A DNA stretch of 48,575 bases from a virus (IMGVR_UViG_2582581022_000007:1-48575); one strand, 5' to 3'. Shown: positions 8,621 to 48,575, numbered from the stretch's first letter. Notes: generated by a model from the letters alone, not told the origin. Translations and numbers: made by a program.

Positions 8621-8631
8621 GGAGATAACCA

Positions 8632-31824: not shown

Positions 31825-31961
31825 ACTGTTCTTTGTTACCATGCATTCAGAGTGAATTGTCAGAGTTTTGGAAGATTCCATCCTACGAGTAATACTCACA
31901 AGGTAATTCACATAATCAATAGGTTAAGTCATAAGCTTCTTGACCCTACATGAGAAGACGA

Positions 31962-31978
31962 ATTTTAGCTGCTAAAAG
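31962..31978. promoter_or_regulatory. KorB operator-like palindrome, copy 2 (ATTTTAGCTGCTAAAAG)
   Basis: One central and one terminal mismatch; flanking ~15 bp also resemble copy 1. Confidence 0.4.
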
Positions 31979-33373: not shown

Positions 33374-33450
33374 TTTAGCCAATGAATAGGTTTTAGCAAG
33401 TGGTAATGCTTGGCATTGTATAGGCCTGATTGGAAACAGGAGGAAGGCAG

Positions 33451-33681: not shown

Positions 33682-33686
33682 CAGCA

Positions 33687-34544: not shown

Positions 34545-35313
34545 TAAAGTGGCACCCACAAGTACAGCTTGGCAAGCCCGAGTAATTCTGTACCAGCCAA
34601 GCCAGCGTCCTAAGGAGGTGAAGGGACAATGGATGGAGACTAGTTTTGGTCGTTGTCGTGTTACCGGACGGCTCGGACAGCGTCATGCCGATATCGTAGA
34701 GACAATATTATATGTTGCCGAGCAACGTCGTGAAATTTCTGATGGTGGAATCGAATTATTAGTAGATCCAGCGAAAGTACGCCGAACGCTATCCGATGCA
34801 CAATACAGTTATGGTCGTATACAGAAATTGCTTTTAGATCTGCGCGTCGCAACAGTTGAAATTATAACGCCAGAGCTGGAGAAAAGCGGCGACTGTATAA
34901 TAGGGGGACTGATCGATCATGTAGTGCCATCACCTATGACGCGTCCAGATCCTTTGACTGGGGGAGAACGCCGTTTATGGCGTGTCCGTCTGGGTGTTGC
35001 ATTAGCGATGTTACTCAAAAAAGATTTGCCATTTTATTATCATCCTGGCCCCATAGCTCGGCTACAACATGGTATTAGCCAGGCAGTCGCTCGTCATGTC
35101 TTAACCCATAGTAATAATCCTTTAGGAGGGTGGTATATGGATACGTTGATATTAGCAGTATGCGGTGAAGGAACGAGTAATATGACTTTACGTAACTATC
35201 GTCGGAGATTGAAAGAAGATTCCGTGCAATTGCTGGAAATTGGAATTGATTTGAACGGTTCTAGGATAAAACGTGTCACAACGGCCCGATATTGTGTCAC
35301 AACGGCCCGATAG
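34519..35313 (+). CDS. hypothetical protein, possibly replication-associated (3' end overlaps iteron array)
   Basis: 264-aa ORF; last ~40 nt lie within 21-bp iterons; start codon uncertain (GTG 34519 or ATG 34531). Confidence 0.35.
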   Translation: MALTMTTGNKVAPTSTAWQARVILYQPSQRPKEVKGQWMETSFGRCRVTGRLGQRHADIVETILYVAEQRREISDGGIELLVDPAKVRRTLSDAQYSYGRIQKLLLDLRVATVEIITPELEKSGDCIIGGLIDHVVPSPMTRPDPLTGGERRLWRVRLGVALAMLLKKDLPFYYHPGPIARLQHGISQAVARHVLTHSNNPLGGWYMDTLILAVCGEGTSNMTLRNYRRRLKEDSVQLLEIGIDLNGSRIKRVTTARYCVTTAR

Positions 35314-35356
35314 CGTGTTATAGCGGCCCGGTAGCGTGCTACAGCGGCCCGATTTT
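35273..35356. repeat. iteron-like array, 4 tandem 21-bp repeats (GTGTCACAACGGCCCGATATT and variants)
   Basis: Units at 35273, 35294, 35315, 35336 share GTG-yyAyAgCGGCCCGrTa core; followed by AT-rich region with GATC sites. Confidence 0.7.
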
Positions 35357-35564
35357 TTACTATTCAGCAGTATTTACAGGATCGTTCAGGATCTACAGTC
35401 TTTGAAATCACCTGCCTGAGCAGGCGCTTTCAAATCTAGAATCGGCCAAAGGCCGATGGTTGTACGCCAGAAGAAGAGATTACTTACTCGTTTGGTATAT
35501 TGACACTTGAGGTAGGTTTTATGACATATGAGGTACGCCCCTAGCTTTAGGCATAGGGAGGAAG

Positions 35565-35581
35565 ATTTTAGCCGCTAAAAT
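35565..35581. promoter_or_regulatory. KorB operator-like perfect palindrome ATTTTAGCCGCTAAAAT, copy 3
   Basis: Identical 17-mer to copy 1; ~400 bp upstream of mobC-like gene. Confidence 0.5.
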
Positions 35582-35970
35582 CTGCAATGCACATGCTTTG
35601 ACAATGTAAGTAAAAAAGTGCATGAGAAAATAAAATATTTCTTACAATATATCGAAACATAAATACAGTTGGTGGACGCCCATTTATAACTACTAAAGGT
35701 CATTTTCAAAAGGGAGAAATATAGTTTCCTTGCAAGAAACACATTTGCTGCAGATCTTTACCCGAGTAATCCTATATTAATACGCTAAGAAAACACATCC
35801 TGTACACTGAAATACACATTGATGTGCACAGATATACTACGGCAACAGGAGGGCAGGACATGTAAAGTAGGCCCACCGCTACGGTGTTCCAACTTTACCA
35901 CTCCCTATTCGCCGCATCGCGGCTCAAGGGCGTCCTGCTCTGCCAGGCTACCGCCTGTATGGAGAGCTAT

Positions 35971-36324
35971 ATGAAAGTTACTCAGACTAGAAAAAATAGT
36001 ACGCCAATAAAAGTTTATTGTTTACCCGAAGAAAAAATTCTCATCCAAGAAAATGCAGAAGCATCTGGATTAAGTGTTGCCTGTTTTGTTCGTAGAGTTG
36101 CAATGGGTTATCAGGTTGATTCTATCGTAGATATAAAACAGGTTAATGAACTTAGCCGAGTAAACGCTGATCTTGGAAGACTTGGCGGATTACTTAAATT
36201 ATGGCTCGCAAATGATCCTCGAACAGTTGATTTTTCACCCACCCTGATAAGAACCTTGCTTGCGAAAATAGAATCAACTCGGCAAGAACTAAGGAACATT
36301 ATGGATAAAATCTTGGATAAATAA
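35971..36324 (+). CDS. MobC-like ribbon-helix-helix mobilisation accessory protein (putative)
   Basis: 117 aa from ATG 35971 (GGAGAG RBS); IKVYCLPEEKILIQENAEASGLSVACFVRRVAMG resembles relaxosome RHH proteins. Confidence 0.45.
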   Translation: MKVTQTRKNSTPIKVYCLPEEKILIQENAEASGLSVACFVRRVAMGYQVDSIVDIKQVNELSRVNADLGRLGGLLKLWLANDPRTVDFSPTLIRTLLAKIESTRQELRNIMDKILDK

Positions 36325-36405
36325 ATGTGTGGTTTCCTATATACCTGCGTCTGTTAAAAGACAGTGTGTTAAATATTACTGAACTGATGAAAAAGAGGTG
36401 AGCAA

Positions 36406-37200
36406 ATGAATTTAATGTTCCGAGTGGTTTCATTACAAAGAGGGATTTTAGCCGCTAAAAAAGCTTTAATAGTTCCTTTCGTGGCGTCCGTCATGGCATT
36501 ACCGGTTAAGGCCGGAATTCCCGTTATTGATGGCACTAATGTGGTTCAGACCACAATCAGCGCAGTTAACAACGTTCAGGCTGTGACTAAACAGATCCAG
36601 CAGTACCAGACGCAGCTGCAGCAGTATGAAAACATGCTCAAAAATACCGTCGCACCTGCGGCCTATATCTGGGATCAGGCCAATTCAACCATCAACAAAT
36701 TGTTGCAGGCGCAGGACACTCTTAATTACTACAAAAATCAGGCCGGGAGTCTTGATTCATATCTGAAACGTTATCAGGACGTGAATTACTACCGCTCATC
36801 ACCGTGCTTTAACAGTAATGTTGAATGTACTGCAGATGAAATCAGCGCACTGCGTAAAGCAGAACAGAACAGCTCTGAGGCGCGTAAAAAGGCCAATGAC
36901 GCCGTTTTTAAGGCTCTTGATGAACAGCAAGAAACACTGCAAAGCGATGCTGATAACCTGGCAGATTTGCAAACTCAGGCAACCGGCGCACAAGGGCAAA
37001 TGGAAGCTATTCAGGCCGCTAACCAGCTTGCAAGTGCTCAAACGAACCAGCTGCTGCAAATCCGCTCGCTCCTGGTAGCCCAGCAAAACGCTGCAGCAAC
37101 ACTGGCACAGGCTCAGGCAGATAAAGAATCACAACAGATAGCCGCTGATGAAAAAGCGTTAGCTGGAGAGAATACACCAAGCCCGAAGCGAATTTGGTGA
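36406..37200 (+). CDS. trbJ: TrbJ/VirB5-like type IV secretion protein
   Basis: Signal peptide, Q-rich coiled-coil (QIQQYQTQLQQYENMLKNT), ~260 aa, followed by small lipoprotein and TrbL-like gene as in IncP trbJ-trbK-trbL. Confidence 0.6.
   Translation: MNLMFRVVSLQRGILAAKKALIVPFVASVMALPVKAGIPVIDGTNVVQTTISAVNNVQAVTKQIQQYQTQLQQYENMLKNTVAPAAYIWDQANSTINKLLQAQDTLNYYKNQAGSLDSYLKRYQDVNYYRSSPCFNSNVECTADEISALRKAEQNSSEARKKANDAVFKALDEQQETLQSDADNLADLQTQATGAQGQMEAIQAANQLASAQTNQLLQIRSLLVAQQNAAATLAQAQADKESQQIAADEKALAGENTPSPKRIW
36445..36461. promoter_or_regulatory. KorB operator-like palindrome, copy 4 (ATTTTAGCCGCTAAAAA), inside trbJ 5' end
   Basis: 16/17 palindrome; encodes ILAAK within the putative signal peptide. 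Confidence 0.4.
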
Positions 37201-37211
37201 GGAAACGCAGA

Positions 37212-37385
37212 ATGAAAGATAATCTTTTGATTGTATTTATTCTGATCAGTTTATTGGCCATATGTTCTTGCGATAAAAATGATAAAGATTGTTTATCGAC
37301 GCCAGATAATAAATTTGATGAAAATAAATACGATAAATGTGCTCTACGGAGTAATAATAAACCAAGCCCTAAACGAGAATGGTAA
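37212..37385 (+). CDS. trbK: small lipoprotein, TrbK-like (entry exclusion) by position
   Basis: MKDNLLIVFILISLLAICSC signal/lipobox-like N-terminus, 57 aa, between trbJ-like and trbL-like genes. Confidence 0.45.
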   Translation: MKDNLLIVFILISLLAICSCDKNDKDCLSTPDNKFDENKYDKCALRSNNKPSPKREW

Positions 37386-38779
37386 TCATGAAAATAGCAA
37401 GTAAGCTCACCTTTCTAGGTATCATAATTTTCTTTTCTATAAATGCCTATGCTGGTCAATTAGATAGTAGCGGGCTACTTGATTCTTTATTAGATAAGTT
37501 TCAACAAGTAGCCAGTACATGGACAACAGTAATTGCTGACTATGCAAATTGGCTCTTCTGGGGGCTGGTATTAATAAGTATGGTTTGGACATTTGGTATG
37601 ATGGCAATGCAAGGAGAAGGGTTGACAGGCGTACTTGCTGAAATAGTTCGCTTTTTTGCCGTCATTGGTTTTTTTTATTATCTTTTAATCAACGGCCCAT
37701 CCATATCGCAATCCATAATTAATTCAATGAGGCAACTTGCAGCAAACGCTTTAGGAATAAGTACTGGTATTTCGCCCTCAAGCATAGTTGATATGGCGTT
37801 TGCGATATTAACAAAGGTCAGTTCAGCCGCATCAATTTGGTCGCCAATGATATCCACCATTATGATAACAGTAGCGATAATCGTTTTGGTAGTGATGTCC
37901 CTTATAGCGATAAATATGCTAATCATGTTGGTTTCTGCATGGGTGTTATGTTATGCAGGAGTTATATTGCTTGGATTTAGTGGTTCGAAATGGACCTCTG
38001 ATATAGCAATTAATTACTTACGAACTGTTTTATCGATTGGCATTCAATTATTCACGATGACATTAATTATTGGGATTGGACAATCATTTATAGATCAATA
38101 TTTTTCTCTTATTAAAGATGATGTTCCTGATCTTAATAGTCTTATCGTTTTGCTTCTGGCGTCAATTATCCTGTTAGTATTAACGAATAAGCTACCACTG
38201 TTGTTATCAGGTGTTGTAGGAGGAGCTTCTTTACAAGGGATTGGTGGATTTGGGGCGGGTATGATTACTGGCGCTGCCGCTACTGCCATCAGCGGTGCTG
38301 GAGCAATTGCAATGGGGGCATCAGCTCAAGTCAGCGGCGGAGCCTCTGCATTAAAGGCAGCGTTCGAGTCTGCGCAAGCTGCCATGGCCGAGGAATCTGG
38401 TTCAGGTGGTGGAGGCGGTTCCGGTGGAGGATTTGGCGTCGGGGAAGATACCGGTTCTGTAGATACTTCTGGAGGCCAACCCTCAGGCAGTTCCGGTGGT
38501 TCGTCAGCATGGAGCAGTTCAGTTAGCTCCAGCGGAGGAAGTCAGGGGTTTGCTTCATTCTCACGAGCTGGCCGCATGGCAAGCCATATGGGAAGCATCA
38601 TGGCCAACGGAGCTGCTGAGTACCAGAAAATGAAGCGAAGTAGCAATTCTTCTCGTGTCCAACAAACTATTGGAGGGGAGTTGGCGACTCAGATACGTAA
38701 GCAGACAGCTACTCATCGGGATAACCGCGAACATGATGATTTTGCCGATGATAGCTTATCGGGTAATAATAAATCTTGA
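37379..38779 (+). CDS. trbL: TrbL/VirB6-like polytopic membrane protein
   Basis: 466 aa, many transmembrane segments, Gly/Ser-rich C-terminal tail (SGSGGGGGSGGGFGVGEDTGS). Confidence 0.65.
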   Translation: MVIMKIASKLTFLGIIIFFSINAYAGQLDSSGLLDSLLDKFQQVASTWTTVIADYANWLFWGLVLISMVWTFGMMAMQGEGLTGVLAEIVRFFAVIGFFYYLLINGPSISQSIINSMRQLAANALGISTGISPSSIVDMAFAILTKVSSAASIWSPMISTIMITVAIIVLVVMSLIAINMLIMLVSAWVLCYAGVILLGFSGSKWTSDIAINYLRTVLSIGIQLFTMTLIIGIGQSFIDQYFSLIKDDVPDLNSLIVLLLASIILLVLTNKLPLLLSGVVGGASLQGIGGFGAGMITGAAATAISGAGAIAMGASAQVSGGASALKAAFESAQAAMAEESGSGGGGGSGGGFGVGEDTGSVDTSGGQPSGSSGGSSAWSSSVSSSGGSQGFASFSRAGRMASHMGSIMANGAAEYQKMKRSSNSSRVQQTIGGELATQIRKQTATHRDNREHDDFADDSLSGNNKS

Positions 38780-38860
38780 ATCATGTGCGTCAGTTAACGA
38801 GGTAGCGTGAGCTGACGCTTTCACTGTGCGAACTTTACTCCTGCAATTCAAAGGAAAAAC

Positions 38861-39325
38861 ATGTCCAGGACTCCCTATACACGGTTACGTATTGAGGGCT
38901 TCCGCAAAGCAGAGGCTTCCCTGAGACTTGAAGGAATGGACCCCAGTGGTACGCCACTGTACGAGTCCATTAAGGCACGTATTATTTCAGGTGAACTGAC
39001 GTATGAGCAGGGGCGTTCAGAGATTCTTACATACTACACAAAAGCAGATACTGACGGGCCTGTGACAGTGGGAGAGATGCTGGTAGAGGAATTTTTAAAA
39101 CCGCTGAACATGTCTCATGATGAACTGGCGGAAGCTATGGGTATCTGCAAGCAGTATATTGACGATATTATCTGCGGTTTGCGTCGTCTTACGGATGATG
39201 AGGCTCGCGTTCTTGCTGTCATATTTGGTACTGATGAGGACTTTTGGAGTAACCTTCAAAAGTTGCAAGATTGCAAGGAAAACCAAGTAAGTAGCCTTCG
39301 TCCACTTCGTGTTAGACCATGCTAG
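38861..39325 (+). CDS. HigA-like XRE-family HTH protein with N-terminal VbhA/FicA-like SxxxEG motif region
   Basis: C-terminal VGEMLVEEFLKPLNMSHDELAEAMGICKQYIDDIICGLRRLTDDEARVLAVIFGTDEDFWSNLQ matches HigA antitoxin HTH pattern; N-terminal ASLRLEGMDPSG has the (S/T)xxxE(G/N) motif. Confidence 0.55.
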   Translation: MSRTPYTRLRIEGFRKAEASLRLEGMDPSGTPLYESIKARIISGELTYEQGRSEILTYYTKADTDGPVTVGEMLVEEFLKPLNMSHDELAEAMGICKQYIDDIICGLRRLTDDEARVLAVIFGTDEDFWSNLQKLQDCKENQVSSLRPLRVRPC

Positions 39326-39514
39326 CTGCTCTTCACATGTCATGAATGTTAGAATATTTGTTCAAAGTCATTTCTTCAGAGCAAAATTTTTAATAGCGGA
39401 TAGAAAAATGCAAGGTATGTTGGAAAAATAAACGAAGCGAGTACGCAAACGTCTTGAAATGCAGTAACATCATTCCGCCACACTGGCAGTTGGCTAACGG
39501 CGAAAGGAGTTCAT

Positions 39515-40747
39515 GTGAGCCAAGAAGATGATGATAAGTATCCAGCTAGCGCCGTATCCTCATGGAGCGGCTTCGTTTATCAAGGGAAAATTGCATTATA
39601 TCACTCCCTCAAGATTATTCACGATGGCGATCTAGACTTTGAGCTTCAGCTAGACAGTAGTGACGACTTCGCTATTTATAAAAATGGAAAACTACACACA
39701 GCCCATCAAGTCAAAGCGAAGATAAGTAAATATCGAAGTGGTTACACCAAGGCGCTGGAACAGTCTACTTTAATCGAACACGACAAAATCCAAGGGACAA
39801 CGCGTTACTTCCATGTATCTGTTCCTCTAAATAATACGGACGATCATAGAGGCGCTAGCGGAGAAATAGTAAAATTCTATCGCTATGGGGATAATTATTA
39901 TTGTGGTTTGGGTGAAATTGAAGGGCTTACCAAAGAACTAATAAAAAAAATATGTAATAAGCAGCACATCATTGTCAGTGATAACCTTATAAATTTTAAC
40001 TATTGTTTACTTTCTGAAAAAATCAGCACCAAGGCAATATACAATCATAAATTAAATCAGGTTGGCGGAATTTCAGAAAACAGAGCAGCATATGAGGGTC
40101 GTATCAAGGCCAGAAATATTCTAGAAGACCTGCTAACCGAAAACCCCTATCAGAATAGGGACTACTATGCAGTTGCATTAAAGGCCAGGCTTCAAACTCA
40201 TCTGGAAGAGAGGTTGGATCAGGCGCTTCCAACAATGAGTGACACTACTTACGAGAGAGCTAGATGTCTGTGTGAGCACATTCGCGAAACTCATATCAAT
40301 GAATTGAAAGCCCTATGCCAGATGATGAAGCCCTCCGAGCGATTTCAAGACGTTCAGACGAACGACATCAGGCGATACACCAAGCTTATCCAGGCTATTT
40401 CGGTGGAGCCTATATTCAACCACCTCCCACACTACCTTGACAGCGAAAATCGATTTTACGTACCTACCGCTCTTGATGTAGATGAAAGCGAAGAGTGTGA
40501 GTTTGACATGACCCGTGAAATGAAAAACAACGGGGATCTGCTGAGACTACTTTTTGAGTATAACCATCTAATCGCCAGCAAAGCAGAAGCCTCATTCACC
40601 TTTAATACAAAATTTACAAACTCAGATGACTTCGACAACAAGCAGACCACTGAAAAGCTCGAAAGCAACATCACCAAGTCGCTATGCATTAGCGTGATAA
40701 CAAAAGACGATGCGGAGGAACGACTGAATGATAAAGCAACTCATTGA
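39515..40747 (+). CDS. candidate defence effector, LmuA-like (N-terminal PD-(D/E)xK-like nuclease motifs)
   Basis: GTG start with AAAGGAG RBS; GFVYQGKIALYHS...DLDFELQLDSSDDF...HQVKAK suggests D...D...(E/Q)xK nuclease; first gene of coupled operon. Confidence 0.45.
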   Translation: MSQEDDDKYPASAVSSWSGFVYQGKIALYHSLKIIHDGDLDFELQLDSSDDFAIYKNGKLHTAHQVKAKISKYRSGYTKALEQSTLIEHDKIQGTTRYFHVSVPLNNTDDHRGASGEIVKFYRYGDNYYCGLGEIEGLTKELIKKICNKQHIIVSDNLINFNYCLLSEKISTKAIYNHKLNQVGGISENRAAYEGRIKARNILEDLLTENPYQNRDYYAVALKARLQTHLEERLDQALPTMSDTTYERARCLCEHIRETHINELKALCQMMKPSERFQDVQTNDIRRYTKLIQAISVEPIFNHLPHYLDSENRFYVPTALDVDESEECEFDMTREMKNNGDLLRLLFEYNHLIASKAEASFTFNTKFTNSDDFDNKQTTEKLESNITKSLCISVITKDDAEERLNDKATH

Positions 40748-41393
40748 TGAAGCACTTGTTGCACATGGCTTTGTTAGTAAACGCGACTTGGACAACACAA
40801 GCTTTTATATTCGCGAGTCTGGATCTGCTATCAGGTTTGCAGTTCTATATAATCTTGATGACCTTCCTGACCCAGCCGAATTGAATAATAGAATCAATCA
40901 TCTTGCTCCTAGTGAATTTCTCAGAAACCCAAGCTTTAAGAAAAACTGCGACTTGATTTGTATTTATCGTCTTGATGTTCTGGCCAATTTCAAAGATCAC
41001 GAAGAAGAGATTTTCGCAATTGAAGAAGATCCGCACTTCTATAAAAAGTATGTTCTCTATTACAGTATCGCGGAAGAAAGTGCACTCACTAATTTCACCT
41101 ACGACAAACTGGTATCTGTTATTGCTGACAAAAAAGAATTTCTTGAATACAAAGAAAATCCTCTTAACGCCACACAATACAGCTTTGCGGCGAAGACCTT
41201 TATCAAGCTTCCTTTTTTAGAGTTACCTAACCATCAAGAAAATCTTGTGTCCTTGAGGTTACAGGCAGCAGAGGCCGTTGCACAAGCCAGCCTGAACGAT
41301 ACGTATTTGACTATCCAGAAAGTCACAGATAAAAACGCCGACGAAATTATCAAGGAAATGATTAAAAATGAACTGGCAAATATCCAAGATTGA
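40728..41393 (+). CDS. small middle-gene protein of the operon (LmuC-like by position)
   Basis: 221 aa; overlaps upstream gene by 20 nt and downstream gene by 26 nt; GGAGGA RBS. Confidence 0.45.
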   Translation: MIKQLIDEALVAHGFVSKRDLDNTSFYIRESGSAIRFAVLYNLDDLPDPAELNNRINHLAPSEFLRNPSFKKNCDLICIYRLDVLANFKDHEEEIFAIEEDPHFYKKYVLYYSIAEESALTNFTYDKLVSVIADKKEFLEYKENPLNATQYSFAAKTFIKLPFLELPNHQENLVSLRLQAAEAVAQASLNDTYLTIQKVTDKNADEIIKEMIKNELANIQD

Positions 41394-43701
41394 AGTCTCT
41401 AGCTTCAAAGCTTTCAAGCATATCTATTTGGATCTTGACAAGTCGTCTTTGCTAACTCTGGACGGCCCTAACGGTTATGGTAAAACAAGCATATTCGACG
41501 CAATCGAACTATTGCTTACCGGCCAGATCAGTCGAATACAAAATCTATTCAAGACATTACTAACCAAGAACAAGAGAGACTACGCGGACAATCTTTTCTG
41601 GAATAGTCGCTCAGGAGAGAACGATCTCTGCATTAAGATTGAATTTACTAATGATGGTCGCAAACTTGTCTTAGCTAGACATTGCCAAGCTGCAATATTC
41701 AAAAAACCAGTAAACAATCGTGCAGACAAATACGAAAATTTCAAGCTTTATGAGCTGCCAGAATTCGAATCGTCTGAATTCACTAAGATCAATCTGCGCG
41801 ATAATAATTTCCTTGATGAAATTTTCGGAAAGAATTTCAGGGAAAACTTCTCCTTTCTTAACTATTTGGAGCAAGGGCAAAACCGGCTGTTACACACTCG
41901 GGTAGACGAACGGAAGGATAAACTAGGAAACCTATTTAATATCAGTGATATCGAAGCCGAGATTGAAAACTGCAACACTGTATACAGCAAACTCACAAGG
42001 TACATCAATAATCCTGAACGCACGGCAAAAGCTGCATCTCTTATTGAAGAAATAGCCATCCTAAAGGACACATTGCAGGCAGTGGCTGGGAACATTAAGT
42101 ACAAAAAACTCTCGACGACTGATGTCCAACCGGGGTGGGACAAGGAGATAATGTTCTCTACGTATTCGTCAGTGGACCATGCAGCCTACCAGGAATCAGT
42201 TCGTAAGATTATTGCCCTTCTACCACTCAAAGCCACGATAAAAACTAGGGTCCATAACGAGAGAATTGATGCCTACATCGGTCGTAATGAGGAATCTCTG
42301 AGAAGTCTGGCGCAGTTTGGTAAAGACCTGGGCAAGCTTGATGTGCTTGACGCTATCAAGAAAGGGATTGATGAGTTAGAACGTTCAGCAAGTATCATTA
42401 AACGTGGTGCTACGGTGATCAAGCTCGAAGAAGCTCGTTCATTACAAGGTTGGGCGGGTGGGCGTCTTGAGTGGTTTGAGTTACAAATTAATTCTCGAAA
42501 CAGCTTACAAGTAAAAAGTAGCGCCAACACGAACGTTGTAGCCGAATTGGAACGTCTAAAAAGGCAGTTACTTAGGGAACATAAAAAGTCTTATCCCGAC
42601 GAGCAGTTGTGCCCTCTCTGTGGTGCTGACTGGGAAGATCACAAATTAATGGCAGATGCTATTGAAGCAAGAACTAAGCAGATCTCTGAATCATTAGGAC
42701 AGGACGGTAAGGACTTAGTTAACCTTATCGCTGCTATGGACGCAGAGCTGAAACTTATCGACTCCTTTATACAAGACAGCCTGAAACTCCTTACGCCTAC
42801 ATTTGAATCGAACCTTCATGTAGGGCTGACCAGAATTAAGCTTCGGCTCCCGGCAATAACCCAAGTACTGGAAAAGCTGCAAAGCGAAAATATTCAATTT
42901 ACTGATTCATTCACGGAAATTGATGACTTAGTAGATGAGCGACTTGAAAAGCTCAAAGAGATTCTAAGAAATAAAAAACAGGTTGAGGCTGATGCCTTAA
43001 CGCTGCCGGAGGACTGGCGAGAAACCATAAATAGCTCTTTTAAAGATCTGCAGGACTTCTACATAGTCACGGCTGAAGACCTAAAGGGTAAAGAGCATTA
43101 CATATCGATTAAAGCTAACGAGGCTCAAAGTTCTAGGCTCCAAACTTGTATTAAAGATCTTAATCTTATCGAAAAAGAAACCATGGCAGCTCAAAAAGCA
43201 CAAGGTAAAATCGAAAAGCTCCGCAACACTTTGAAAAAGACCGAGCAGAACTATACTGACCAAACAATTTCGGCTATTGAGTTCATATTCCACATTTATA
43301 GTGGTCGGCTGATCCAAAACTACCAGCGTGGCCTGGGCCTGTTTATTGAGAGCCGCGAAGGTACGCAACTGAGGTTCCTGACTGCTGAGAAGTCTGAACA
43401 CGACGCAGTCATGTCCATGAGTTCAGGTCAGGTGTCTGCGCTCAGCCTTGCTTTCTTCCTCGCGCTCAACAAAGTCTATGCACGGGTTCCTCTCATATTG
43501 ATTGACGACCCGTCGCAATCACTGGATGAAGTAAACGTTGCTTCGTTGACCGATCTACTCCGTTGCGAACTCAAACATTGCCAGTTGGTTGTCTCATCGC
43601 ACGAGGACGATATCTCGGCCTATATGCGCTACCGGTTCGACAGAGCCGGTTTGACAACAAGTTCGCTCAACATGCAGCTTTTGGCGAAAGAAGCTTCGTA
43701 A
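41368..43701 (+). CDS. SMC/Rad50-like ABC ATPase with mid-protein CxxC (zinc-hook-like); LmuB-like
   Basis: Walker A GPNGYGKTS (res ~33-41), CPLCG near res ~415 in long charged helix-rich middle, C-terminal SGQVSALSLAF signature, LILIDDP Walker B, SSHED. Confidence 0.75.
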   Translation: MNWQISKIEVSSFKAFKHIYLDLDKSSLLTLDGPNGYGKTSIFDAIELLLTGQISRIQNLFKTLLTKNKRDYADNLFWNSRSGENDLCIKIEFTNDGRKLVLARHCQAAIFKKPVNNRADKYENFKLYELPEFESSEFTKINLRDNNFLDEIFGKNFRENFSFLNYLEQGQNRLLHTRVDERKDKLGNLFNISDIEAEIENCNTVYSKLTRYINNPERTAKAASLIEEIAILKDTLQAVAGNIKYKKLSTTDVQPGWDKEIMFSTYSSVDHAAYQESVRKIIALLPLKATIKTRVHNERIDAYIGRNEESLRSLAQFGKDLGKLDVLDAIKKGIDELERSASIIKRGATVIKLEEARSLQGWAGGRLEWFELQINSRNSLQVKSSANTNVVAELERLKRQLLREHKKSYPDEQLCPLCGADWEDHKLMADAIEARTKQISESLGQDGKDLVNLIAAMDAELKLIDSFIQDSLKLLTPTFESNLHVGLTRIKLRLPAITQVLEKLQSENIQFTDSFTEIDDLVDERLEKLKEILRNKKQVEADALTLPEDWRETINSSFKDLQDFYIVTAEDLKGKEHYISIKANEAQSSRLQTCIKDLNLIEKETMAAQKAQGKIEKLRNTLKKTEQNYTDQTISAIEFIFHIYSGRLIQNYQRGLGLFIESREGTQLRFLTAEKSEHDAVMSMSSGQVSALSLAFFLALNKVYARVPLILIDDPSQSLDEVNVASLTDLLRCELKHCQLVVSSHEDDISAYMRYRFDRAGLTTSSLNMQLLAKEAS

Positions 43702-43856
43702 AAGCCACCTTGGCCACCTATTAGAGCGGGTGGCTAAATTTAGTGTTTCACTACAAATAGCATAAAAGGATGCAAAAATTCGGCGAATTTATTCCACGTG
43801 TTTTTTTAAATTCAATGTATGTTAAAATTGTGTCTATTTTATATCAGGATTGTCAA

Positions 43857-44744
43857 ATGAACTCAATTGTTACAGCTAAGGCATTGTCAGCAAGGAAAAA
43901 GTTTGCAGGCCGTCAATGGTTCTACGATTTTAGAGAACTAACTCAGCGTATTGATGAACAAAATGCCCAAAAAATTGCAGATAGCCTTTCCGTTCGATAT
44001 TCAAAACTAACAAAATTTTGGGATAAGGAAAAGAATTCAGAATGGATGTGCAGAATTTATTTATCGGCAAAAATGGTGATGAACGCCACAATACAGATTA
44101 ACTCCATGGAGTTTGCAAAAGAACGCAATATCCGTATCACAACTCCTTATTTAACATATTATTCCCTCCTTTCACTTCTTCGAGGAATCGTCTACACATT
44201 ACCAGAAGTGGAATGGGAGAATGGAAAGCTTATTGAGATATCGCATCACAAAGCTATAAATTTGGCATTCGACCATCTTTCGGCATTTAATAAGGACTTA
44301 TCTGAAGAGTTTAAAAATATCACGCTCACAGCCAAGGCATATCGTGAATTAATTTCGTATCGCTCCCCAACGTCGGGTGACTCTATAATTGAATCAATAA
44401 GCATCGAAGCGATTGCCACATTGCTAGCTGAGGTGGCACAATTTAACTCTGAAATTTTGGAGTCATCCATTATTAAGAAAGCAGATGGCGCTTCGTTTGA
44501 GTTTCTTAGTAAGTATATAAAAGAGTTATCTGGCATTACTATCGAAGGTATCAATTTCTTCGATCAAGAAGATGCTTATAGGTTAAACTATCTTCGCCGA
44601 AAATACCCTCTACCTCCAAATGTTCTTCATGTCATGACGGAAGGACATGTAGAGGATTTTTTTGGGGCATGGCTACCTAGTGAAGAAATTGAAGGTGCTT
44701 TTGACCCAGATGAAAATTGGGGAGTTATTTTTGATATCCCATAG
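43857..44744 (+). CDS. hypothetical protein (orphan gene between two defence loci)
   Basis: 295 aa from ATG 43857 (AGGA RBS); follows hairpin after previous operon; no motifs I can assign. Confidence 0.4.
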   Translation: MNSIVTAKALSARKKFAGRQWFYDFRELTQRIDEQNAQKIADSLSVRYSKLTKFWDKEKNSEWMCRIYLSAKMVMNATIQINSMEFAKERNIRITTPYLTYYSLLSLLRGIVYTLPEVEWENGKLIEISHHKAINLAFDHLSAFNKDLSEEFKNITLTAKAYRELISYRSPTSGDSIIESISIEAIATLLAEVAQFNSEILESSIIKKADGASFEFLSKYIKELSGITIEGINFFDQEDAYRLNYLRRKYPLPPNVLHVMTEGHVEDFFGAWLPSEEIEGAFDPDENWGVIFDIP

Positions 44745-45064
44745 TTAATTAATTGCGAAGATTATTTTTTTTGTTAATCCAGAACTAAATTGGAATGAAA
44801 AAATATGGGGTTGGGTAGTAAATAGAGCCAATTCCCCATATCCTTCATGGCAAGAATGTTTAAGCGGTATATAACACGTTTATGGACATTCATGAGTTAT
44901 GATTTTTATAAATTAGCATTTCTAAAATCAACTTGGATATTGTAAACCTAGGTCAGTTGACCAAATCTATTACGACACTATACTATACATTTGTCTTTCG
45001 TCTAAATGCCGCTAGGTCAATATCAACGGTATTGACCTTTGCTTCGAATGAATCTTTATAAATA

Positions 45065-45916
45065 CTATGGGTAAATTAAATTGTGCTTAGTATATAAGAA
45101 CTGGACTACACCTTGGGAGTTTAAAATTCCATGAATAAAGATTGAGAACCAGTTGTTTGGTGTGCTGTACGACTGATCATATCTATTTAATGCATCATTC
45201 AAATATCTCGAAAAGTCAGCAATGGTTGGAGTATTGGCTAATGGTAACGTTTGAATTTTTAAGCTTGGGTTTTGTGTCGTTGTATCCCATTCACCTTCTA
45301 GCCAATTAATAATTCCTGATGGGAGAACAACTTTCTCCGTGTGGTATTTTATGCTGTCTATTTCTAAGTGCTGTGGTAAAACATAAGCTATTTCAATTTT
45401 AGCTTTTGGAAATTGAGGGTCTTGAGTAATGTTACACGACAAAAGCCTCTGATTAAGAAAAACGTCATAATAAGGATGTAGTATCCTTTTATTTCCATCC
45501 GTTAAATTCGTTTTTCGTTTGCTGTTGCAATCACAAGCTGGAACTAAATTTTTTGAATACACAGAAAAGCAAGGGTAGTCATCTTTAGGAAACAGGTGAT
45601 CAAGGGTTCCTGTTTTTAATGAACCGCACATTGGGCAAACGTTTGGTGAAGATGCTCTTAAATCATCAATGAACTTTAAGTCAGTTGGTGGTGAAGCGTA
45701 GTGCTTCTTCAATGCTATTGATAAATCATTGGTAATGTTGACGTTCGCAACTGATAGTGCGTTACCATTATTAGCGTCATAGTCTTGGTATCCATTTAAA
45801 ATGATCTGTAACTCATTGTGTAAATGCGGATAACTTGTTCTATGAAGCCTGTCTCTTTGAGACGTTGTCGTTATTTTCTCAATATCATTTACCGCAGGTA
45901 AAGGAAGCTTTTTCAC
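45065..45916 (-). CDS. HNH endonuclease (PtuB-like)
   Basis: CPMCGS...TLDHLFPK...PACDCNSKR HNH/zinc-finger motifs; GTG start 2 nt after upstream ATPase stop with GGAGGA RBS. Confidence 0.75.
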   Translation of the reverse strand: MKKLPLPAVNDIEKITTTSQRDRLHRTSYPHLHNELQIILNGYQDYDANNGNALSVANVNITNDLSIALKKHYASPPTDLKFIDDLRASSPNVCPMCGSLKTGTLDHLFPKDDYPCFSVYSKNLVPACDCNSKRKTNLTDGNKRILHPYYDVFLNQRLLSCNITQDPQFPKAKIEIAYVLPQHLEIDSIKYHTEKVVLPSGIINWLEGEWDTTTQNPSLKIQTLPLANTPTIADFSRYLNDALNRYDQSYSTPNNWFSIFIHGILNSQGVVQFLYTKHNLIYP

Positions 45917-45918
45917 AA

Positions 45919-47385
45919 TTAATCCTCCATCATGCGTTTTAATCGCATTAAGGCTGATAGCGAAATTTCATTGCCTAGCTGTTCTTCTACGTCAGAAAAG
46001 CTCTTGCCTTTCACTCTATCGTAGAGTTTTTCTGAAAGTCTTATTTCAGTATCTTCCTGAAAGATAAACTGTGAAATAGAATCTACAGTTGCTCCAAATG
46101 TCGGTAACCTCGGTTTATCAGTTACGAGCCTGTGATCTGATATTGAGAGAACAGCTACCTGTTCATTTGATACTTCACGGACAAAATACGCCGAATGAGT
46201 TGCTATAAGTGCCTGTGAGCCTGTTTTTTCTAATAGGAAGTCTAGTAGTCCTATAAAATCAACAATCATGTTAGGATGCATGTGCGTTTCAGGTTCATCC
46301 ATCAATACAAACGTACCGTTTTCAATGAACAAGCAACTCAGTAAAGCAACCTTAAAGAAGGTTAACTGCCCGCTACTAAGCGGGTAGAGTCCGTCGCCTC
46401 TTTTTAATTTAGGGTCTAGGTTGTGCTCAATACTAGCCCAACGCATCAAAGAATCTTGCTCTCCGTTTCCTTGTAAAAAACTCCATAGATTGATTGTTCG
46501 TTCATTTTTTAACTGTAAAAAGATATTTCTAGGGTCTAATCCTGCTTGGTAAAGTGAATCCAAAAAAAGGTTTTTTCGAGTATTTTCACCAATCTCATCT
46601 GCACTTCTCGCTAATTGTACGAGGCAATCACCAATATTATGTGTCCCTTTTCGAGTCAGATTTAACCGTCTATAGTAAAGCTTCTGTGTCGCTCTTCTTT
46701 CAGGGGGAAACGTGTTTGAGGTTTCACCAGGTGTCGCTATTGCGATAATACGATTGATTAGAGGTCGTTTACCGTCATCGTCAACCAGTGACAACCCTTT
46801 ATCTTTATATTGCAGTGCCCCTCGGCAAAATGCTTTAAGCGACTCGCTTTTACCAACACCATTTTTACCTATCAACACAAAAATTCGCTTCGGTATGATA
46901 CTTTGGTGGTTGTATTTTAATGACAGTTGATGAAGCTCTTCAAAACCATCTAACTGGAACTTAAGTTCTAACGAGTTGGATATAGCTACATCACTTTTTA
47001 GCTCTTCTCCAATAATAATACTGTTAGCATTGTGATAAGCGAAGAACGGCTCGGAGTTACGCATGAAACCAAGTTTAAATACTTCAGTATCAATGGCTTT
47101 TCTTACCCATTTTTCATCAGTGTCTTTATATTGAGAAAGATCATTTACTGTACGTAAGAATAGTTCGGCTCCTTCGCGGCCAAACCCGTCGTAAAGGTCT
47201 CGGTAGCTTTGCATGTCAGGTAACAAAGTAAAAAATGGAGGAAGGTCCTCTGAATAAACAACCTCTTTATCAGCCTTTTTTAGGTACTCCCATAGCGTTT
47301 CTTTTTTTTCATAAAAGAGAAGCTCTTCCTCTTTGTTTTCTATGTTATCTGGAGCCATAAAGCCAATTAACATTGAGCCTTCCAT
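45919..47385 (-). CDS. ABC-type/AAA_21-like ATPase (PtuA-like) with ~170-aa N-terminal extension
   Basis: Walker A IGKNGVGKS at res ~173-180, signature LSSGQLTFFKVALL, Walker B FVLMDEPETHMHP, H-loop IATHSAYF. Confidence 0.75.
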   Translation of the reverse strand: MEGSMLIGFMAPDNIENKEEELLFYEKKETLWEYLKKADKEVVYSEDLPPFFTLLPDMQSYRDLYDGFGREGAELFLRTVNDLSQYKDTDEKWVRKAIDTEVFKLGFMRNSEPFFAYHNANSIIIGEELKSDVAISNSLELKFQLDGFEELHQLSLKYNHQSIIPKRIFVLIGKNGVGKSESLKAFCRGALQYKDKGLSLVDDDGKRPLINRIIAIATPGETSNTFPPERRATQKLYYRRLNLTRKGTHNIGDCLVQLARSADEIGENTRKNLFLDSLYQAGLDPRNIFLQLKNERTINLWSFLQGNGEQDSLMRWASIEHNLDPKLKRGDGLYPLSSGQLTFFKVALLSCLFIENGTFVLMDEPETHMHPNMIVDFIGLLDFLLEKTGSQALIATHSAYFVREVSNEQVAVLSISDHRLVTDKPRLPTFGATVDSISQFIFQEDTEIRLSEKLYDRVKGKSFSDVEEQLGNEISLSALMRLKRMMED

Positions 47386-47665
47386 TGGTCTATGTTCTTC
47401 GGATATACAAACCTTAAATTCACATCTAATTTTGAACCCGAAGTCATTTCACGATGTTTCAGCAGGTGAGATGATCACTTGACCAGCCAATGGGATATGT
47501 TCAGCGGTTTTGTTCAGGCTAAATAAAACTTTTAATGACTCCATTTATTTCCCTATTTAATCATGACTTTAACAGCAATCAATTTAGCAATTCGGTATAC
47601 CGAAGTAGATGGCAATTTGGACTGAAGTTCTCTCACTTATTCAGTTTCTAGCTGATGGTTGCGAC

Positions 47666-48237
47666 TTAAGGGCGTTTCATTCTAATTCCATTAATTGGGA
47701 TGGTAATCCTCCCATTTTTAACCGCAATTAAACGTAGAAGTCTAGCGGCCATTAATGGTGGTTTTCCTCCATTGGCTTTGTGTGGCCGTTCATAATTGGA
47801 AAAACTAAAACCATTTAGTGGCATAGTCTTACACTTCTTCAAGTGTATCAAATAAATGTTTGCTGACCTAGCTGTACATGATCGTTTTGTTATGTAGTTC
47901 GATGTAGGCATTTTGCTGTGGTTTGCCAGGCTGAGTGTACTCAATACGGATCCCATGCATTTTCGACCATTTTGTAAACCCTTGGCTGATTAACTCAGGC
48001 CCATTGTCAAAGCGTATCGCTAGCAGTTTTGTTCGCCATTCGAGCAATTGATTTAGTGTTCTTATCACTTGCAGTGCCAGCAATGAGAACTCTGCTTTAA
48101 TCGGCAAACCTCGTTTGAAGTCGTCGATGACGTTGAAGAACTGATAGCTGCGTCCATCCGCTAGCAGGTCAGCGCTATGTAAAGTGTATAGAGATAAGTT
48201 GGAGGTACAAGGTGGATAGAATTACATCGGAACCAGC
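47666..48237 (-). pseudogene. IS3-family transposase (DDE integrase core) remnant, N-terminally truncated and frameshifted
   Basis: Two overlapping frames: ...FFNVIDDFKRGLPIKAEF...RFDNGPELISQ...QPGKPQQNAYIE and ...NYERPHKANGGKPPLMAARL; in-frame stop at 48238, no start. Confidence 0.65.
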
Positions 48238-48481
48238 GATGACTTGTGGCAGAGAAACAAGAACTTCGTCAGGACATGAAAGAATCCTCAGCTTGGGCCA
48301 ACGTCGAACTAAACACCGATGAGACGCAAAAAATCAAAAAATTTACGCATGGTATAGATGATGGTATCGATAAACCTTTTCTTTATAACAAGCTGTTATT
48401 TCTATATATTTTTTTCTCGTTGATATTCGAGTGGGAATGATTTGACCCTGCACTATGAATGAACAAAACCCTCTGTTACTA

Positions 48482-48574
48482 CCTGTCTCTTGATCAGATC
48501 TCCTGATCAAGAGACTTCATCACCAGGTAACCCTCAACCATATCCTGAAGTCTGAACCAGCCATCCCACATGAC
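48482..48574 (-). mobile_element. terminus of an IS50-like (IS4-family) insertion sequence with 3' end of its transposase gene; element continues past window end
   Basis: CTGTCTCTTGATCAGATCT at 48482-48500 equals the Tn5/IS50 inside-end repeat as I recall it (two GATC sites); minus-strand frame ends ..GWFRLQDMVEGYLVMKSLDQEI* with stop inside the repeat. Confidence 0.55.
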
Positions 48575-48575
48575 T

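What the first reader, a model, noticed from the sequence alone, without database searches (positions are those of the whole stretch)
39515..43701. Three-gene translationally coupled operon: nuclease-like protein + small protein + SMC/Rad50-like ATPase with CxxC hook (Lamassu-like candidate defence system)
Seen: three same-strand ORFs with overlapping stop/start codons (40728 overlaps 40747; 41368 overlaps 41393), so likely one co-translated operon. Gene 3 has an N-terminal Walker A (GPNGYGKTS), a C-terminal ABC signature (SGQVSALSLAF) with Walker B (LILIDDP), a long charged middle, and a CPLCG almost exactly mid-protein, the arrangement expected for a Rad50/SbcC-type zinc hook. Gene 1 has N-terminal motifs compatible with a PD-(D/E)xK nuclease (..DLDFELQLDSSDDF..HQVKAK). 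Inference: effector nuclease, small adaptor, SMC-like sensor is the Lamassu (LmuA-LmuC-LmuB / DdmABC) architecture. I cannot verify family membership; if gene 1 and 2 do not match known LmuA/LmuC families this may be a new variant. The locus sits in an AT-rich island next to an ATPase+HNH pair.
Basis: partly seen in the sequence, partly recalled or inferred. Interest (0 to 1): 0.8.

Follow-up and report, generated by a model that had tools for sequence, protein, structure and literature searches.

The report
Long-type Lamassu anti-phage defence operon
These three overlapping genes are an intact Lamassu (ABC-3C) bacterial immune system, made of a Cap4-type DNA-cutting effector, a small adaptor and a Rad50-like zinc-hook ATPase sensor; the family is already catalogued, although this "long" branch has hardly been studied experimentally.

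Summary

**Family matches.** All three proteins hit Lamassu models in PADLOC: LmuA 3e-22, LmuC 9e-19, LmuB 5e-83 over its full length. They also hit the Pfam ABC-3C families CTD1 and MComp1.

**LmuB.** It is 777 aa, with Walker A, an SGQ signature, Walker B LILIDD, and a single CPLC at residue 415. Predicted helical arms of 217 and 209 aa flank the CPLC. One CxxC lies at 0.52-0.55 of the length in 58 of 58 homologues.

**Subtype.** These features define the published "long" Lamassu clade (CTD1/MC1, Rad50/SbcCD-like). This clade differs from the short DdmABC/LmuACB systems that have been solved.

**Distribution.** Gene order and overlaps are conserved down to about 25% identity across phyla. 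Identical proteins are already in RefSeq as "ABC-three component system". The operon sits in the cargo end of a guaA-adjacent integrative element. Copies with 83% nucleotide identity are on Vibrio pVA1 plasmids.

**Verdict.** Known kind, modest interest. The mechanism of long Lamassu remains open.

The parts
39326..39514 (+). Upstream intergenic region of lmuA. The promoter is not identified. There is a possible extended -10 (TGtTAGAAT) at 39347-39355 and a Shine-Dalgarno AGGAG at 39504-39508.
   Evidence: Sequence read. The consensus promoter scan found nothing above the shuffled expectation. Homology to the Vibrio plasmid copies begins only at 39504, so the promoter is context-specific.
39515..40747 (+). 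lmuA: effector protein, 410 aa. It has an N-terminal Cap4-type PD-(D/E)xK nuclease and a C-terminal ABC-3C CTD1 domain.
39542..39889 (+). Nuclease core of LmuA (aa about 10-125), with alpha-beta-beta-beta-alpha-beta topology. The structural alignment to Cap4/LmuA extends to about 175-190 residues and includes the following helices.
39662..39715 (+). Predicted catalytic motif: D50-D51 (39662-39667) and Q65-V-K67 (39707-39715).
   Evidence: D51, Q65 and K67 are invariant, together with Y22 and G24, in 89 homologues of 18-61% identity. Coordinates were verified. The equivalent lysine (K57) is the inactivating mutation used in V. cholerae and B. cellulasensis LmuA.
39869..40582 (+). CTD1 domain of LmuA (aa 119-356). 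It is the presumed LmuB/LmuC-docking and oligomerisation module and includes the acidic stretch DVDESEECEFD (aa 321-331).
   Evidence: Pfam PF20276; 84 of 89 homologues carry it. Acidic stretch located. Nothing in the PDB matches it by sequence.
40728..41393 (+). lmuC: middle component (MComp1/MC1), 221 aa. It overlaps lmuA by 20 nt, with a GGAGG Shine-Dalgarno upstream.
   Evidence: PADLOC LmuC 9.3e-19. Pfam MComp1 1.7e-13. Conserved motifs KN.DL, EED.Y.FKK, F..YK and K(L/I)PF in 30 homologues. No PDB match by sequence and no sequence similarity to SbcD.
41368..43701 (+). lmuB: Rad50/SbcC-like ABC ATPase of the long type, 777 aa. It overlaps lmuC by 26 nt.
   Evidence: PADLOC LmuB PDLC03859 4.8e-83 over aa 1-761. 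Pfam SMC_N and AAA_23. PDB profile search: the best matches are Rad50 heads at 1e-9. Foldseek top match is Rad50 7zr1 at 7.5e-8.
41464..41487 (+). Walker A motif, GPNGYGKT (aa 33-40).
   Evidence: G33, N35, G36, G38 and K39 are invariant.
41941..42591 (+). N-terminal (ascending) helical arm, aa 192-408 (217 aa, 76% helix in the model).
42610..42621 (+). CPLC zinc-hook motif (aa 415-418), in a non-helical loop (aa 409-422) between the two arms.
   Evidence: C415 and C418 are invariant. Exactly one CxxC lies at 0.52-0.55 of the length in 58 of 58 full-length homologues.
42634..43260 (+). C-terminal (descending) helical arm, aa 423-631 (209 aa, 80% helix in the model).
43423..43509 (+). ABC signature SGQ (43423-43431) and Walker B LILIDD (43492-43509). 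The H-loop His745 lies at 43600-43602.
   Evidence: Walker B of the form hhhhDD occurs in 55 of 58 homologues, which is the long-Lamassu form.
43710..43737 (+). Terminator-like hairpin that closes the operon.
   Evidence: Homology to the E. coli and Vibrio copies ends at 43734 and 43705 respectively.

Best explanation
The locus is an intact three-gene type II Lamassu (ABC-3C) defence operon, lmuA-lmuC-lmuB, of the 'long' clade (Cap4 nuclease-CTD1 / MC1 / LmuB of about 800 aa). It is carried as cargo of a guaA-adjacent integrative mobilisable element.

**Shown here:**
- Family membership of all three proteins.
- A Cap4-type PD-(D/E)xK nuclease fold in LmuA, with an invariant D...QxK motif.
- A Rad50-like split ABC ATPase with two roughly equal helical arms and a single invariant CxxC between them.
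- Conserved gene order and overlapping junctions across phyla.

**Inferred from work on short Lamassu and on Rad50/SbcCD:**
- LmuB dimerises through the zinc hook and, together with LmuC, holds LmuA in an inactive monomeric state.
- Binding of aberrant DNA (free double-strand ends, hairpins or replication intermediates of a phage or plasmid), plus ATP-driven head engagement, changes the complex.
- The LmuA nuclease then becomes active, most likely through CTD1-mediated oligomerisation.
- Active LmuA degrades DNA, which aborts the infection at the cost of the cell.
For: **Family matches.** PADLOC gives LmuA 3.3e-22, LmuC 9.3e-19 and LmuB 4.8e-83 over its full length. Pfam gives CTD1 4.7e-43, MComp1 1.7e-13, and SMC_N/AAA_23.

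**LmuB.** Walker A, SGQ, Walker B LILIDD and His745 are present. A single CxxC lies at mid-length in 58 of 58 homologues, and 55 of 58 have an hhhhDD Walker B. Helices at 192-408 and 423-631 flank the CxxC loop. The closest solved relatives are Rad50.

**Operon.** A-C-B synteny with overlapping junctions is found in more than 50 loci, from Gammaproteobacteria to Bacteroidota, Campylobacterota and Firmicutes. The homology block shared with E. coli chromosomes and Vibrio plasmids coincides with the operon boundaries.

**Context.** The defence-island setting includes PDC-M01A/B next door and, in sister islands, a pair of GmrSD-domain proteins.

**Literature.** The features of the long clade are described (PMC12663957; 10.1101/2025.03.14.643221). 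Sequestration of LmuA, DNA-end sensing and LmuA tetramer activation in short systems are described. The requirement for the ATPase, the effector and LmuC, and the abortive-infection phenotype, are described.
Against: - There is no functional test of this operon or of any Cap4-CTD1-MC1 long Lamassu. According, only one long system (B. cereus B4077, hydrolase-protease effector) has been validated.
- The Pfam Cap4_nuclease match of this LmuA is below the gathering score (20.9 against 26.2 bits). The nuclease assignment therefore rests on the predicted fold and on motif conservation.
- The LmuB model is of low confidence overall (pLDDT 62, pTM 0.34, heads poorly modelled). Antiparallel pairing of the two arms is inferred, not seen.
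- CTD1 and MC1 have no sequence relative among solved structures. In published predictions of long complexes, LmuA and LmuC sit near the LmuB heads rather than near the hook, so the release-and-tetramerise step may not carry over from short systems.
Confidence: 0.85

Rival explanations
1. The components are the same but the mechanism differs. As in Rad50-Mre11/SbcCD, the LmuA nuclease stays bound at the LmuB heads (with LmuC acting as the SbcD-CTD-like bridge) and cuts only the DNA end or hairpin that LmuB has clamped. The invader is destroyed directly, rather than LmuA being released and killing the cell.
For: - Long LmuB keeps the canonical hhhhDD Walker B and a single hook, like SbcC/Rad50.
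- Its nearest solved relatives by sequence and by fold are Rad50, not short LmuB.
- The literature predicts that LmuA and LmuC of long systems sit at the heads, with long LmuC placed like the SbcD CTD.
Against: - The Cap4-type nucleases characterised so far (Cap4, short LmuA) are activated by oligomerisation.
- Lamassu-family systems that have been tested show abortive-infection behaviour.
- There is no direct evidence for long systems in either direction.
Confidence: 0.2
2. The operon's main role is competition between mobile elements (anti-plasmid activity, or addiction to the island or plasmid that carries it) rather than anti-phage defence.
For: - It always travels on mobile elements: a guaA-adjacent integrative element in E. 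coli and pVA1-type plasmids in Vibrio.
- The proteins are 85-97% identical across many genera, which implies recent horizontal spread.
Against: - This role does not exclude phage defence.
- Carriage on a plasmid shows that the system tolerates at least that plasmid.
- It sits next to other candidate anti-phage systems.
- It is very rare on viral contigs, with 4 loci among 2.9 million. That says little about what it targets.
Confidence: 0.2
3. It is a housekeeping SbcCD/RecN/RecF-type DNA-repair module, which is how some source databases label it.
For: Some sources name LmuB 'exonuclease SbcC', 'recombinase RecF' or 'DNA repair protein SbcC/Rad50'. There is also a GO 'double-strand break repair' tag on the Vibrio plasmid copy.
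Against: - No NCBIfam repair equivalog comes near its cut-off (RecF 50 bits against 172).
- Similarity to E. coli SbcC is limited to 76 residues of the C-terminal head.
- There is no Mre11/SbcD phosphoesterase partner, and LmuC shows no sequence similarity to SbcD.
- The locus is accessory: it is found in 70 of 5426 E. coli genomes and is AT-rich.
Confidence: 0.02
4. The operon is a decaying, non-functional remnant.
For: Some E. coli copies are damaged: lmuC is truncated in strain VE-V11-M, one copy has an IS1 insertion (H22), and several partial LmuB entries exist. The neighbouring PDC-M01A gene in this window carries a premature stop.
Against: - All three ORFs in this window are full length (410/221/777 aa, as in the homologues), with all catalytic motifs intact.
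- Identical protein sequences occur on 18-37 contigs.
Confidence: 0.05

Closest known systems
Long Lamassu clade, also described as ABC-3C systems with LmuA CTD1-5 / LmuC MC1 / large LmuB (Haudiquet et al. 2025, PMC12663957; Gruber-lab preprint 10.1101/2025.03.14.643221; Pfam PF20276 CTD1 and PF20289 MComp1).
   Same: All diagnostic features match: LmuB of about 800 aa (777 here), Walker B of the form hhhhDD, one CxxC, CTD1 in LmuA, MC1 in LmuC, and a Cap4 effector, which is one of the effector types listed for long systems.
   Different: Nothing differs at the level tested. The clade itself is known almost only from bioinformatics. The single validated long system (B. cereus B4077) has hydrolase-protease effectors, not Cap4.
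Short type II Lamassu with a Cap4 effector: V. cholerae DdmABC/LmuACB and Salmonella enterica LmuACB (CTD7/MC3; PDB 9nxx, 9hqx, 9hr5, 9uxh).
   Same: The gene order is A-C-B. LmuA has a Cap4-type nuclease with a catalytic lysine. The sensor is an SMC-like ATPase. The likely logic is the same: an effector held inactive and activated by DNA ends.
   Different: - CTD1 replaces CTD7 and MC1 replaces MC3. Neither profile search against solved structures returned a Lamassu chain (LmuA profile at E up to 1, LmuB profile at E up to 0.001).
- LmuB is about 170 aa longer and has a canonical DD Walker B, whereas short systems have a deviant one.
- V. cholerae LmuB has no zinc hook.
- LmuA and LmuC are predicted to dock near the heads rather than at the hook.
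Rad50-Mre11 / SbcCD DNA-repair complex.
   Same: LmuB is the same kind of protein: split ABC heads, antiparallel coiled-coil arms and a CxxC zinc hook. Rad50 is its best solved relative. Long LmuC is reported to resemble the SbcD/Mre11 C-terminal region.
   Different: - There is no Mre11/SbcD phosphoesterase. The nuclease is an unrelated PD-(D/E)xK Cap4-type domain on a separate protein.
- The arms are about 200 aa shorter than in SbcC.
- The locus is accessory and mobile.
CBASS Cap4 effector (nuclease + SAVED) and other defence proteins that use the same nuclease module (HerA-DUF4297, the Avs3 nuclease, the protein deposited as 'Anti-bacteriophage protein A' in the E. coli Hachiman structure 8zue).
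   Different: LmuA has no SAVED/CARF sensor, no cyclase, no HerA and no STAND ATPase. The nuclease is fused to CTD1 and partnered with LmuC and LmuB.

Membership tests
Lamassu / ABC-3C (type II, LmuA-LmuC-LmuB) | LmuB: an SMC/Rad50-like ABC ATPase with Walker A, signature motif, Walker B and a long helical insert between the two head halves. | tested here: met
   PADLOC LmuB 4.8e-83 over its full length. Motifs found. Helical middle region at aa 192-631.
Lamassu / ABC-3C (type II, LmuA-LmuC-LmuB) | LmuA: an N-terminal effector domain fused to an ABC-3C C-terminal domain (CTD1-12). | tested here: met
   Pfam CTD1 4.7e-43. PADLOC LmuA 3.3e-22. Cap4-type nuclease fold.
Lamassu / ABC-3C (type II, LmuA-LmuC-LmuB) | LmuC: a small middle component encoded between lmuA and lmuB. 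| tested here: met
   Pfam MComp1 1.7e-13 and PADLOC LmuC 9.3e-19. Its position between A and B is conserved in more than 50 loci.
Lamassu / ABC-3C (type II, LmuA-LmuC-LmuB) | Protection against phage and/or plasmids that requires the ATPase, the effector and LmuC. | not testable with these tools
   This needs cloning, plaque or plasmid-stability assays, and K39A, K67A and delta-lmuC mutants. It has been shown only for other family members.
Lamassu / ABC-3C (type II, LmuA-LmuC-LmuB) | An LmuB2-LmuA1-LmuC1 complex that sequesters monomeric LmuA. | not testable with these tools
   No multimer prediction was available. The complex is known for short systems only.
Long Lamassu clade | LmuB of about 800 aa with a canonical Walker B (hhhhDD). 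| tested here: met
   777 aa with LILIDD. 55 of 58 homologues have hhhhDD. Criterion taken.
Long Lamassu clade | Exactly one CxxC zinc-hook motif at the apex of the coiled coil. | tested here: met
   One CPLC at aa 415 of 777. 58 of 58 homologues have exactly one, at 0.52-0.55 of the length. It lies in a loop between helical arms of 217 and 209 aa. Apex geometry and zinc binding were not observed directly (model pLDDT <50 at the loop).
Long Lamassu clade | LmuC (MC1) with a fold resembling the SbcD/Mre11 C-terminal region. | not tested
Sequence profile comparison with E. coli SbcD shows nothing, as the literature expects.
Cap4/DUF4297 nuclease effector | A PD-(D/E)xK core with conserved acidic residues and a QxK/ExK lysine. 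| tested here: met
Cap4/DUF4297 nuclease effector | A Pfam PF14130 match above the gathering score. | tested here: not met
   20.9 bits against a 26.2 cut-off for this protein. 25 of 89 homologues match at E<1e-3. It is therefore a divergent member by sequence and a clear member by fold.
Housekeeping SbcCD / Rad50-Mre11 | An SbcC/Rad50 equivalog match together with an adjacent Mre11/SbcD phosphoesterase. | tested here: not met
   No NCBIfam equivalog reaches its cut-off. Neither neighbour is a phosphoesterase. hhalign against SbcC aligns only 76 residues.
Short Lamassu (DdmABC type, Cap4-CTD7-MC3) | A CTD7 domain in LmuA, MC3 in LmuC, LmuB of about 600 aa, and a deviant Walker B. | tested here: not met
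   This system has CTD1, MC1, 777 aa and a DD Walker B. Apart from a borderline match of the LmuA profile to the nuclease of 8zue (E 0.045), neither the LmuA nor the LmuB profile search returned a solved Lamassu chain.

The most novel reading that the evidence does not exclude
Long Lamassu systems such as this one may not use the release-and-tetramerise switch of short Lamassu. Instead they may work like a Rad50-Mre11/SbcCD machine with a swapped-in Cap4 nuclease. In this reading LmuA stays docked at the LmuB heads through CTD1 and the SbcD-CTD-like LmuC, and ATP hydrolysis (the canonical DD Walker B is retained) drives local cutting of clamped phage or plasmid DNA ends. That would give direct, non-suicidal immunity.

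If this is right, the operon would be a living intermediate between a DNA-repair complex and an abortive-infection system. It is native to E. coli and is the same across many genera, which would also make it a convenient model.
Probability: 0.2. Interest if true: 0.6.

Novelty: already known. Interest (0 to 1): 0.3.

Why it matters
For genome annotation this is routine. It is a Lamassu/ABC-3C system that PADLOC and Pfam models already recognise, and RefSeq already holds identical proteins.

Its value is as a specimen. It is an intact long-clade Lamassu (Cap4-CTD1/MC1) that is native to E. coli. According to the 2025 literature, only one long-clade system has been validated and none has been solved, and the clade is proposed to be the evolutionary bridge between SbcCD/Rad50-Mre11 repair complexes and the short Lamassu systems.

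The same operon, at 85-97% protein identity, has spread across Enterobacterales, Vibrio, Pseudomonas, Shewanella, Aeromonas, Halomonas and acetic acid bacteria. It is also on the pVA1 plasmids that cause shrimp AHPND, where it could affect phage-based biocontrol.

Tried and rejected
- **Single-sequence and profile searches of the PDB for LmuA and LmuC** gave no significant hit. The relationship to solved LmuA and Cap4 appears only at the fold level.
- **Profile search of the PDB with LmuB** hit only Rad50, SMC and PtuA-type heads, and no short LmuB.
- **hhalign of LmuC against E. coli SbcD** gave no signal. LmuB against SbcC aligned only the signature/Walker B region.
- **NCBIfam** has no model for LmuA or LmuC, and LmuB reached no repair equivalog. 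The housekeeping reading was rejected.
- **Scanning genome contigs with the 89-sequence alignment** failed because it was too divergent. A 12-sequence alignment worked.
The accepted alignment (62-92% identity) gave a low-confidence model (pLDDT 62). It is usable only for secondary structure and for a weak fold match (TM about 0.13).
- **The promoter scan** gave nothing above the shuffled expectation.
- **Rfam** found no RNA family inside the locus.
- **The downstream 324-aa ORF (43770-44744)** was considered as a fourth Lamassu gene and rejected. It is absent from the loci of the genome-contig scan, and the homology blocks shared with the E. coli VE-V11-M-type and Vibrio copies end before it.
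- **The upstream HigA-like gene** was considered as a regulator of the system. It is only 66% identical at the E. coli VE-V11-M locus, where it is not annotated, and is absent from the Vibrio and other loci, so it is not a conserved part of the system.

Full report
**1. Observation.** They are 39515-40747 (410 aa; GTG start preceded by AGGAG), 40728-41393 (221 aa) and 41368-43701 (777 aa), and they overlap by 20 and 26 nt.
- In gene 3: Walker A GPNGYGKT (aa 33-40), a single CPLC (aa 415-418, 0.53 of the length), SGQ (686-688), Walker B LILIDD (709-714) and His745.
- In gene 1: GFVYQG (19-24), DD (50-51) and QVK (65-67).

A hairpin resembling a terminator follows gene 3 at 43710-43737. The operon has 42% GC and the adjacent prophage 53%. 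The ATPase + HNH-like pair next door is real and matches the PADLOC candidate system PDC-M01A/B.

**2. Family assignment.** PADLOC models name all three proteins: LmuA 3.3e-22, LmuC 9.3e-19, and LmuB 4.8e-83 covering aa 1-761 of 777. Pfam finds the ABC-3C C-terminal domain CTD1 in gene 1 (4.7e-43, aa 119-356) and the ABC-3C middle component MComp1 in gene 2 (1.7e-13). Gene 3 matches SMC_N, AAA_23 and AAA_15.

NCBIfam has no model for genes 1 and 2. Gene 3 comes nowhere near any repair equivalog; for example RecF scores 50 bits against a cut-off of 172. RefSeq already annotates near-identical and identical proteins as 'ABC-three component system protein / middle component 1 / AAA family ATPase'.

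**3. The effector (LmuA).** On its own sequence the Cap4_nuclease Pfam match is sub-threshold (20.9 against 26.2 bits, aa 18-72). I therefore collected diverse relatives. There are 265 clusters at 50% identity with E<=1e-3, and I aligned 89 full-length ones of 18-61% identity.
- Only five columns are invariant: Y22, G24, D51, Q65 and K67. D51 and Q65-x-K67 make a D...QxK nuclease signature.
- 84 of the 89 carry CTD1, and 25 of the 89 match Cap4_nuclease at E<1e-3.

AlphaFold2 run on this alignment gave a confident model (pLDDT 92, pTM 0.78). Its N-terminal core has alpha-beta-beta-beta-alpha-beta topology, with D51 at the start of strand 2 and Q65/K67 on strand 3.

- Many restriction endonucleases follow.

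**4. The sensor (LmuB).** In 58 full-length homologues taken from 80 loci in other species, down to 26% identity, every one has exactly one CxxC, at 0.52-0.55 of its length. 55 of the 58 have a Walker B of the form hhhhDD. C415 and C418 are invariant columns.

The AlphaFold model of LmuB is of low overall confidence (pLDDT 62, pTM 0.34, C-terminal head unmodelled). I therefore use it only for secondary structure. Residues 192-408 (217 aa, 76% helix) and 423-631 (209 aa, 80% helix) flank a non-helical loop (409-422) that holds the CPLC. This is the layout expected of an antiparallel coiled coil with the hook at its apex. Pairing of the arms and zinc binding are inferred, not seen.

Rad50 is the closest solved relative in each search:
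- single sequence;
- profile, at 1e-9, with no short LmuB hit at E<=1e-3;
- Foldseek, where Rad50 7zr1 scores 7.5e-8 and a short type II LmuB appears only at rank 42 (the TM-scores are low because the model is poor).

Similarity to E. coli SbcC is limited to 76 residues around the signature and Walker B motifs.

**5. The middle component (LmuC).** Thirty homologues share the motifs KN.DL, EED.Y.FKK.VL.Y, F..YK and K(L/I)PF, followed by a variable linker and a short C-terminal segment. LmuC has no sequence relative in the PDB and no sequence similarity to SbcD. I could not test its fold. The reported resemblance of MC1-type LmuC to the SbcD/Mre11 C-terminal region is taken from the literature.

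**6. One operon and one module.** The A-C-B order, with overlapping or abutting junctions, is kept in more than 50 loci from Gamma- and Betaproteobacteria, Bacteroidota, Campylobacterota and Firmicutes. The DNA shared with 70 E. coli chromosomes (93.7% identity) spans window 39400-43734. The DNA shared with 41 Vibrio plasmids (83% identity) spans 39504-43705, which is almost exactly from the ribosome-binding site to the stop codon. The three genes therefore move as one self-contained cassette.

**7. Subtype.** Two 2025 studies split Lamassu into two groups.
- The 'long' / Rad50-Mre11-like group has LmuB of about 800 aa, a canonical hhhhDD Walker B, always one CxxC, LmuA CTD1-5 and LmuC MC1.
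- The 'short' group has LmuB of about 600 aa, a deviant Walker B, zero to two CxxC motifs, CTD6-12 and MC2-8.

The window's system meets every long-clade criterion that I could test. Cap4 is one of the effector types listed for long systems. All solved and biochemically dissected Lamassu systems (V. cholerae DdmABC, S. enterica LmuACB, B. cellulasensis LmuAB) are short, with CTD7 or CTD12. According, only one long system, with hydrolase-protease effectors, has been validated. A full-text search for 'long Lamassu' returned only that paper and its preprint.

**8. Context.** Window 38065-48575 is 99.99% identical to an E. coli assembly (GCA_901482685.1). The operon lies in the distal cargo region of an integrative mobilisable element. 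The element's gene order is tyrosine integrase (29881), a RepA-like ATPase, TraJ with its traJ-II RNA, TrbJ, TrbL, and a HigA-like gene. In E. coli it sits between guaA and yfgI. Here a prophage lies immediately upstream.

Downstream of the Lamassu operon come an unassigned 324-aa ORF and PDC-M01B/A. Sister islands carry a pair of GmrSD-domain (DUF262-type) proteins at the same end. LmuA proteins of 85-97% identity occur in Klebsiella, Yersinia, Serratia, Pantoea, Morganella, Vibrio, Halomonas, Pseudomonas, Shewanella, Aeromonas and Acetobacter, which indicates recent and wide horizontal spread. Only 4 of 2.9 million viral contigs encode a relative.

**9. Mechanism.**
- Shown here: the identity of the parts and their conserved coupling.
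- Inferred from short Lamassu and from family-level genetics: an LmuB dimer, joined at the zinc hook, together with LmuC holds LmuA as an inactive monomer. DNA ends or replication intermediates of an invader, plus ATP-driven head engagement, free or rearrange LmuA. The Cap4-type nuclease becomes active by oligomerising through its CTD and degrades DNA, which aborts the infection.
- Main uncertainty: whether the release-and-tetramerise step applies to long systems. Their predicted complexes place LmuA and LmuC at the heads, as in SbcCD. [quoted passage not shown] I give about 0.2 to a Rad50-Mre11-like tethered-nuclease mode.

**10. Verdict.** The kind is already known, so interest is modest (0.3). 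What remains of interest is that this is an intact, E. coli-native, very widely disseminated example of the little-studied long clade.

Noticed in passing
window 45919-47385 (-), extending to about 47545: The ATPase of the neighbouring candidate system (PDC-M01A, PADLOC 3e-51) carries an in-frame stop at codon 32 of the 541-aa form seen in sister islands (AETSW becomes AETS*). This leaves a 488-aa ORF that starts at Met54. The neighbouring system may be inactivated or N-terminally shortened in this strain.
   Followed up: partly
window 43770-44744 (+): This 324-aa ORF (295 aa in most annotations) has no hit in Pfam, NCBIfam or PADLOC. It always lies between the Lamassu operon and PDC-M01B in this island family, and it converges on the HNH-like gene. 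It is absent from the Lamassu loci recovered from other species in the genome-contig scan. It could be an unrecognised third partner of PDC-M01 or an independent cargo gene.
   Followed up: partly
L002 (V. parahaemolyticus pVPA3-1, NC_025152.1) 5979-10195, plus 40 other Vibrio plasmids: The pVA1-type plasmids that cause shrimp AHPND carry the same long Lamassu operon (83% nucleotide identity), a few kb from the Cry-like/Pir toxin region. No paper in the searched library mentions Lamassu together with pVA1 or AHPND.
   Followed up: partly
window 38861-39325 (+): This 154-aa protein has a HigA-type HTH antitoxin domain at aa 67-139 (NCBIfam 8.5e-18) and an unassigned N-terminal extension of about 65 aa. 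It sits directly upstream of lmuA, and no toxin partner is visible. It is conserved at this position in the sister islands of E. coli but absent from Lamassu loci elsewhere.
   Followed up: partly
window 29560-39500: This is the backbone of an integrative mobilisable element: tyrosine integrase, RepA-like ATPase, TraJ, TrbJ and TrbL, with a traJ-II cis-regulatory RNA at 35851-35949. It is 99.1% identical to elements inserted next to guaA in several E. coli strains. The Lamassu cargo in the copies held in complete RefSeq E. coli genomes is mostly about 94% identical, so backbone and cargo appear to have different histories.
   Followed up: partly
window 24214-24398 (-) and 5477-5553 (-): The prophage part of the window carries a C4 antisense RNA (24214-24299), an isrK RNA (24324-24398) and a tRNA-Arg(TCT).
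   Followed up: no
L001 (E. coli VE-V11-M) 13329-13820; hit H22 (E. coli 30EVA2): Some E. coli copies of this Lamassu are damaged. In one, lmuC is truncated to 163 aa with a gap before lmuB. In another, an IS1 element has inserted. This suggests occasional loss of function, perhaps because the system is costly.
   Followed up: no
window 47666-48107 (-): Two adjacent short ORFs resemble fragments of an IS3-family transposase (the integrase core), just beyond PDC-M01A. This assignment is by eye from the translations only. The sister locus L089, which matches the window at 99.99% from 38065 to the window end, has a 457-aa DDE transposase called beyond its PDC-M01A; its corresponding position would lie past the end of this window.
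   Followed up: no
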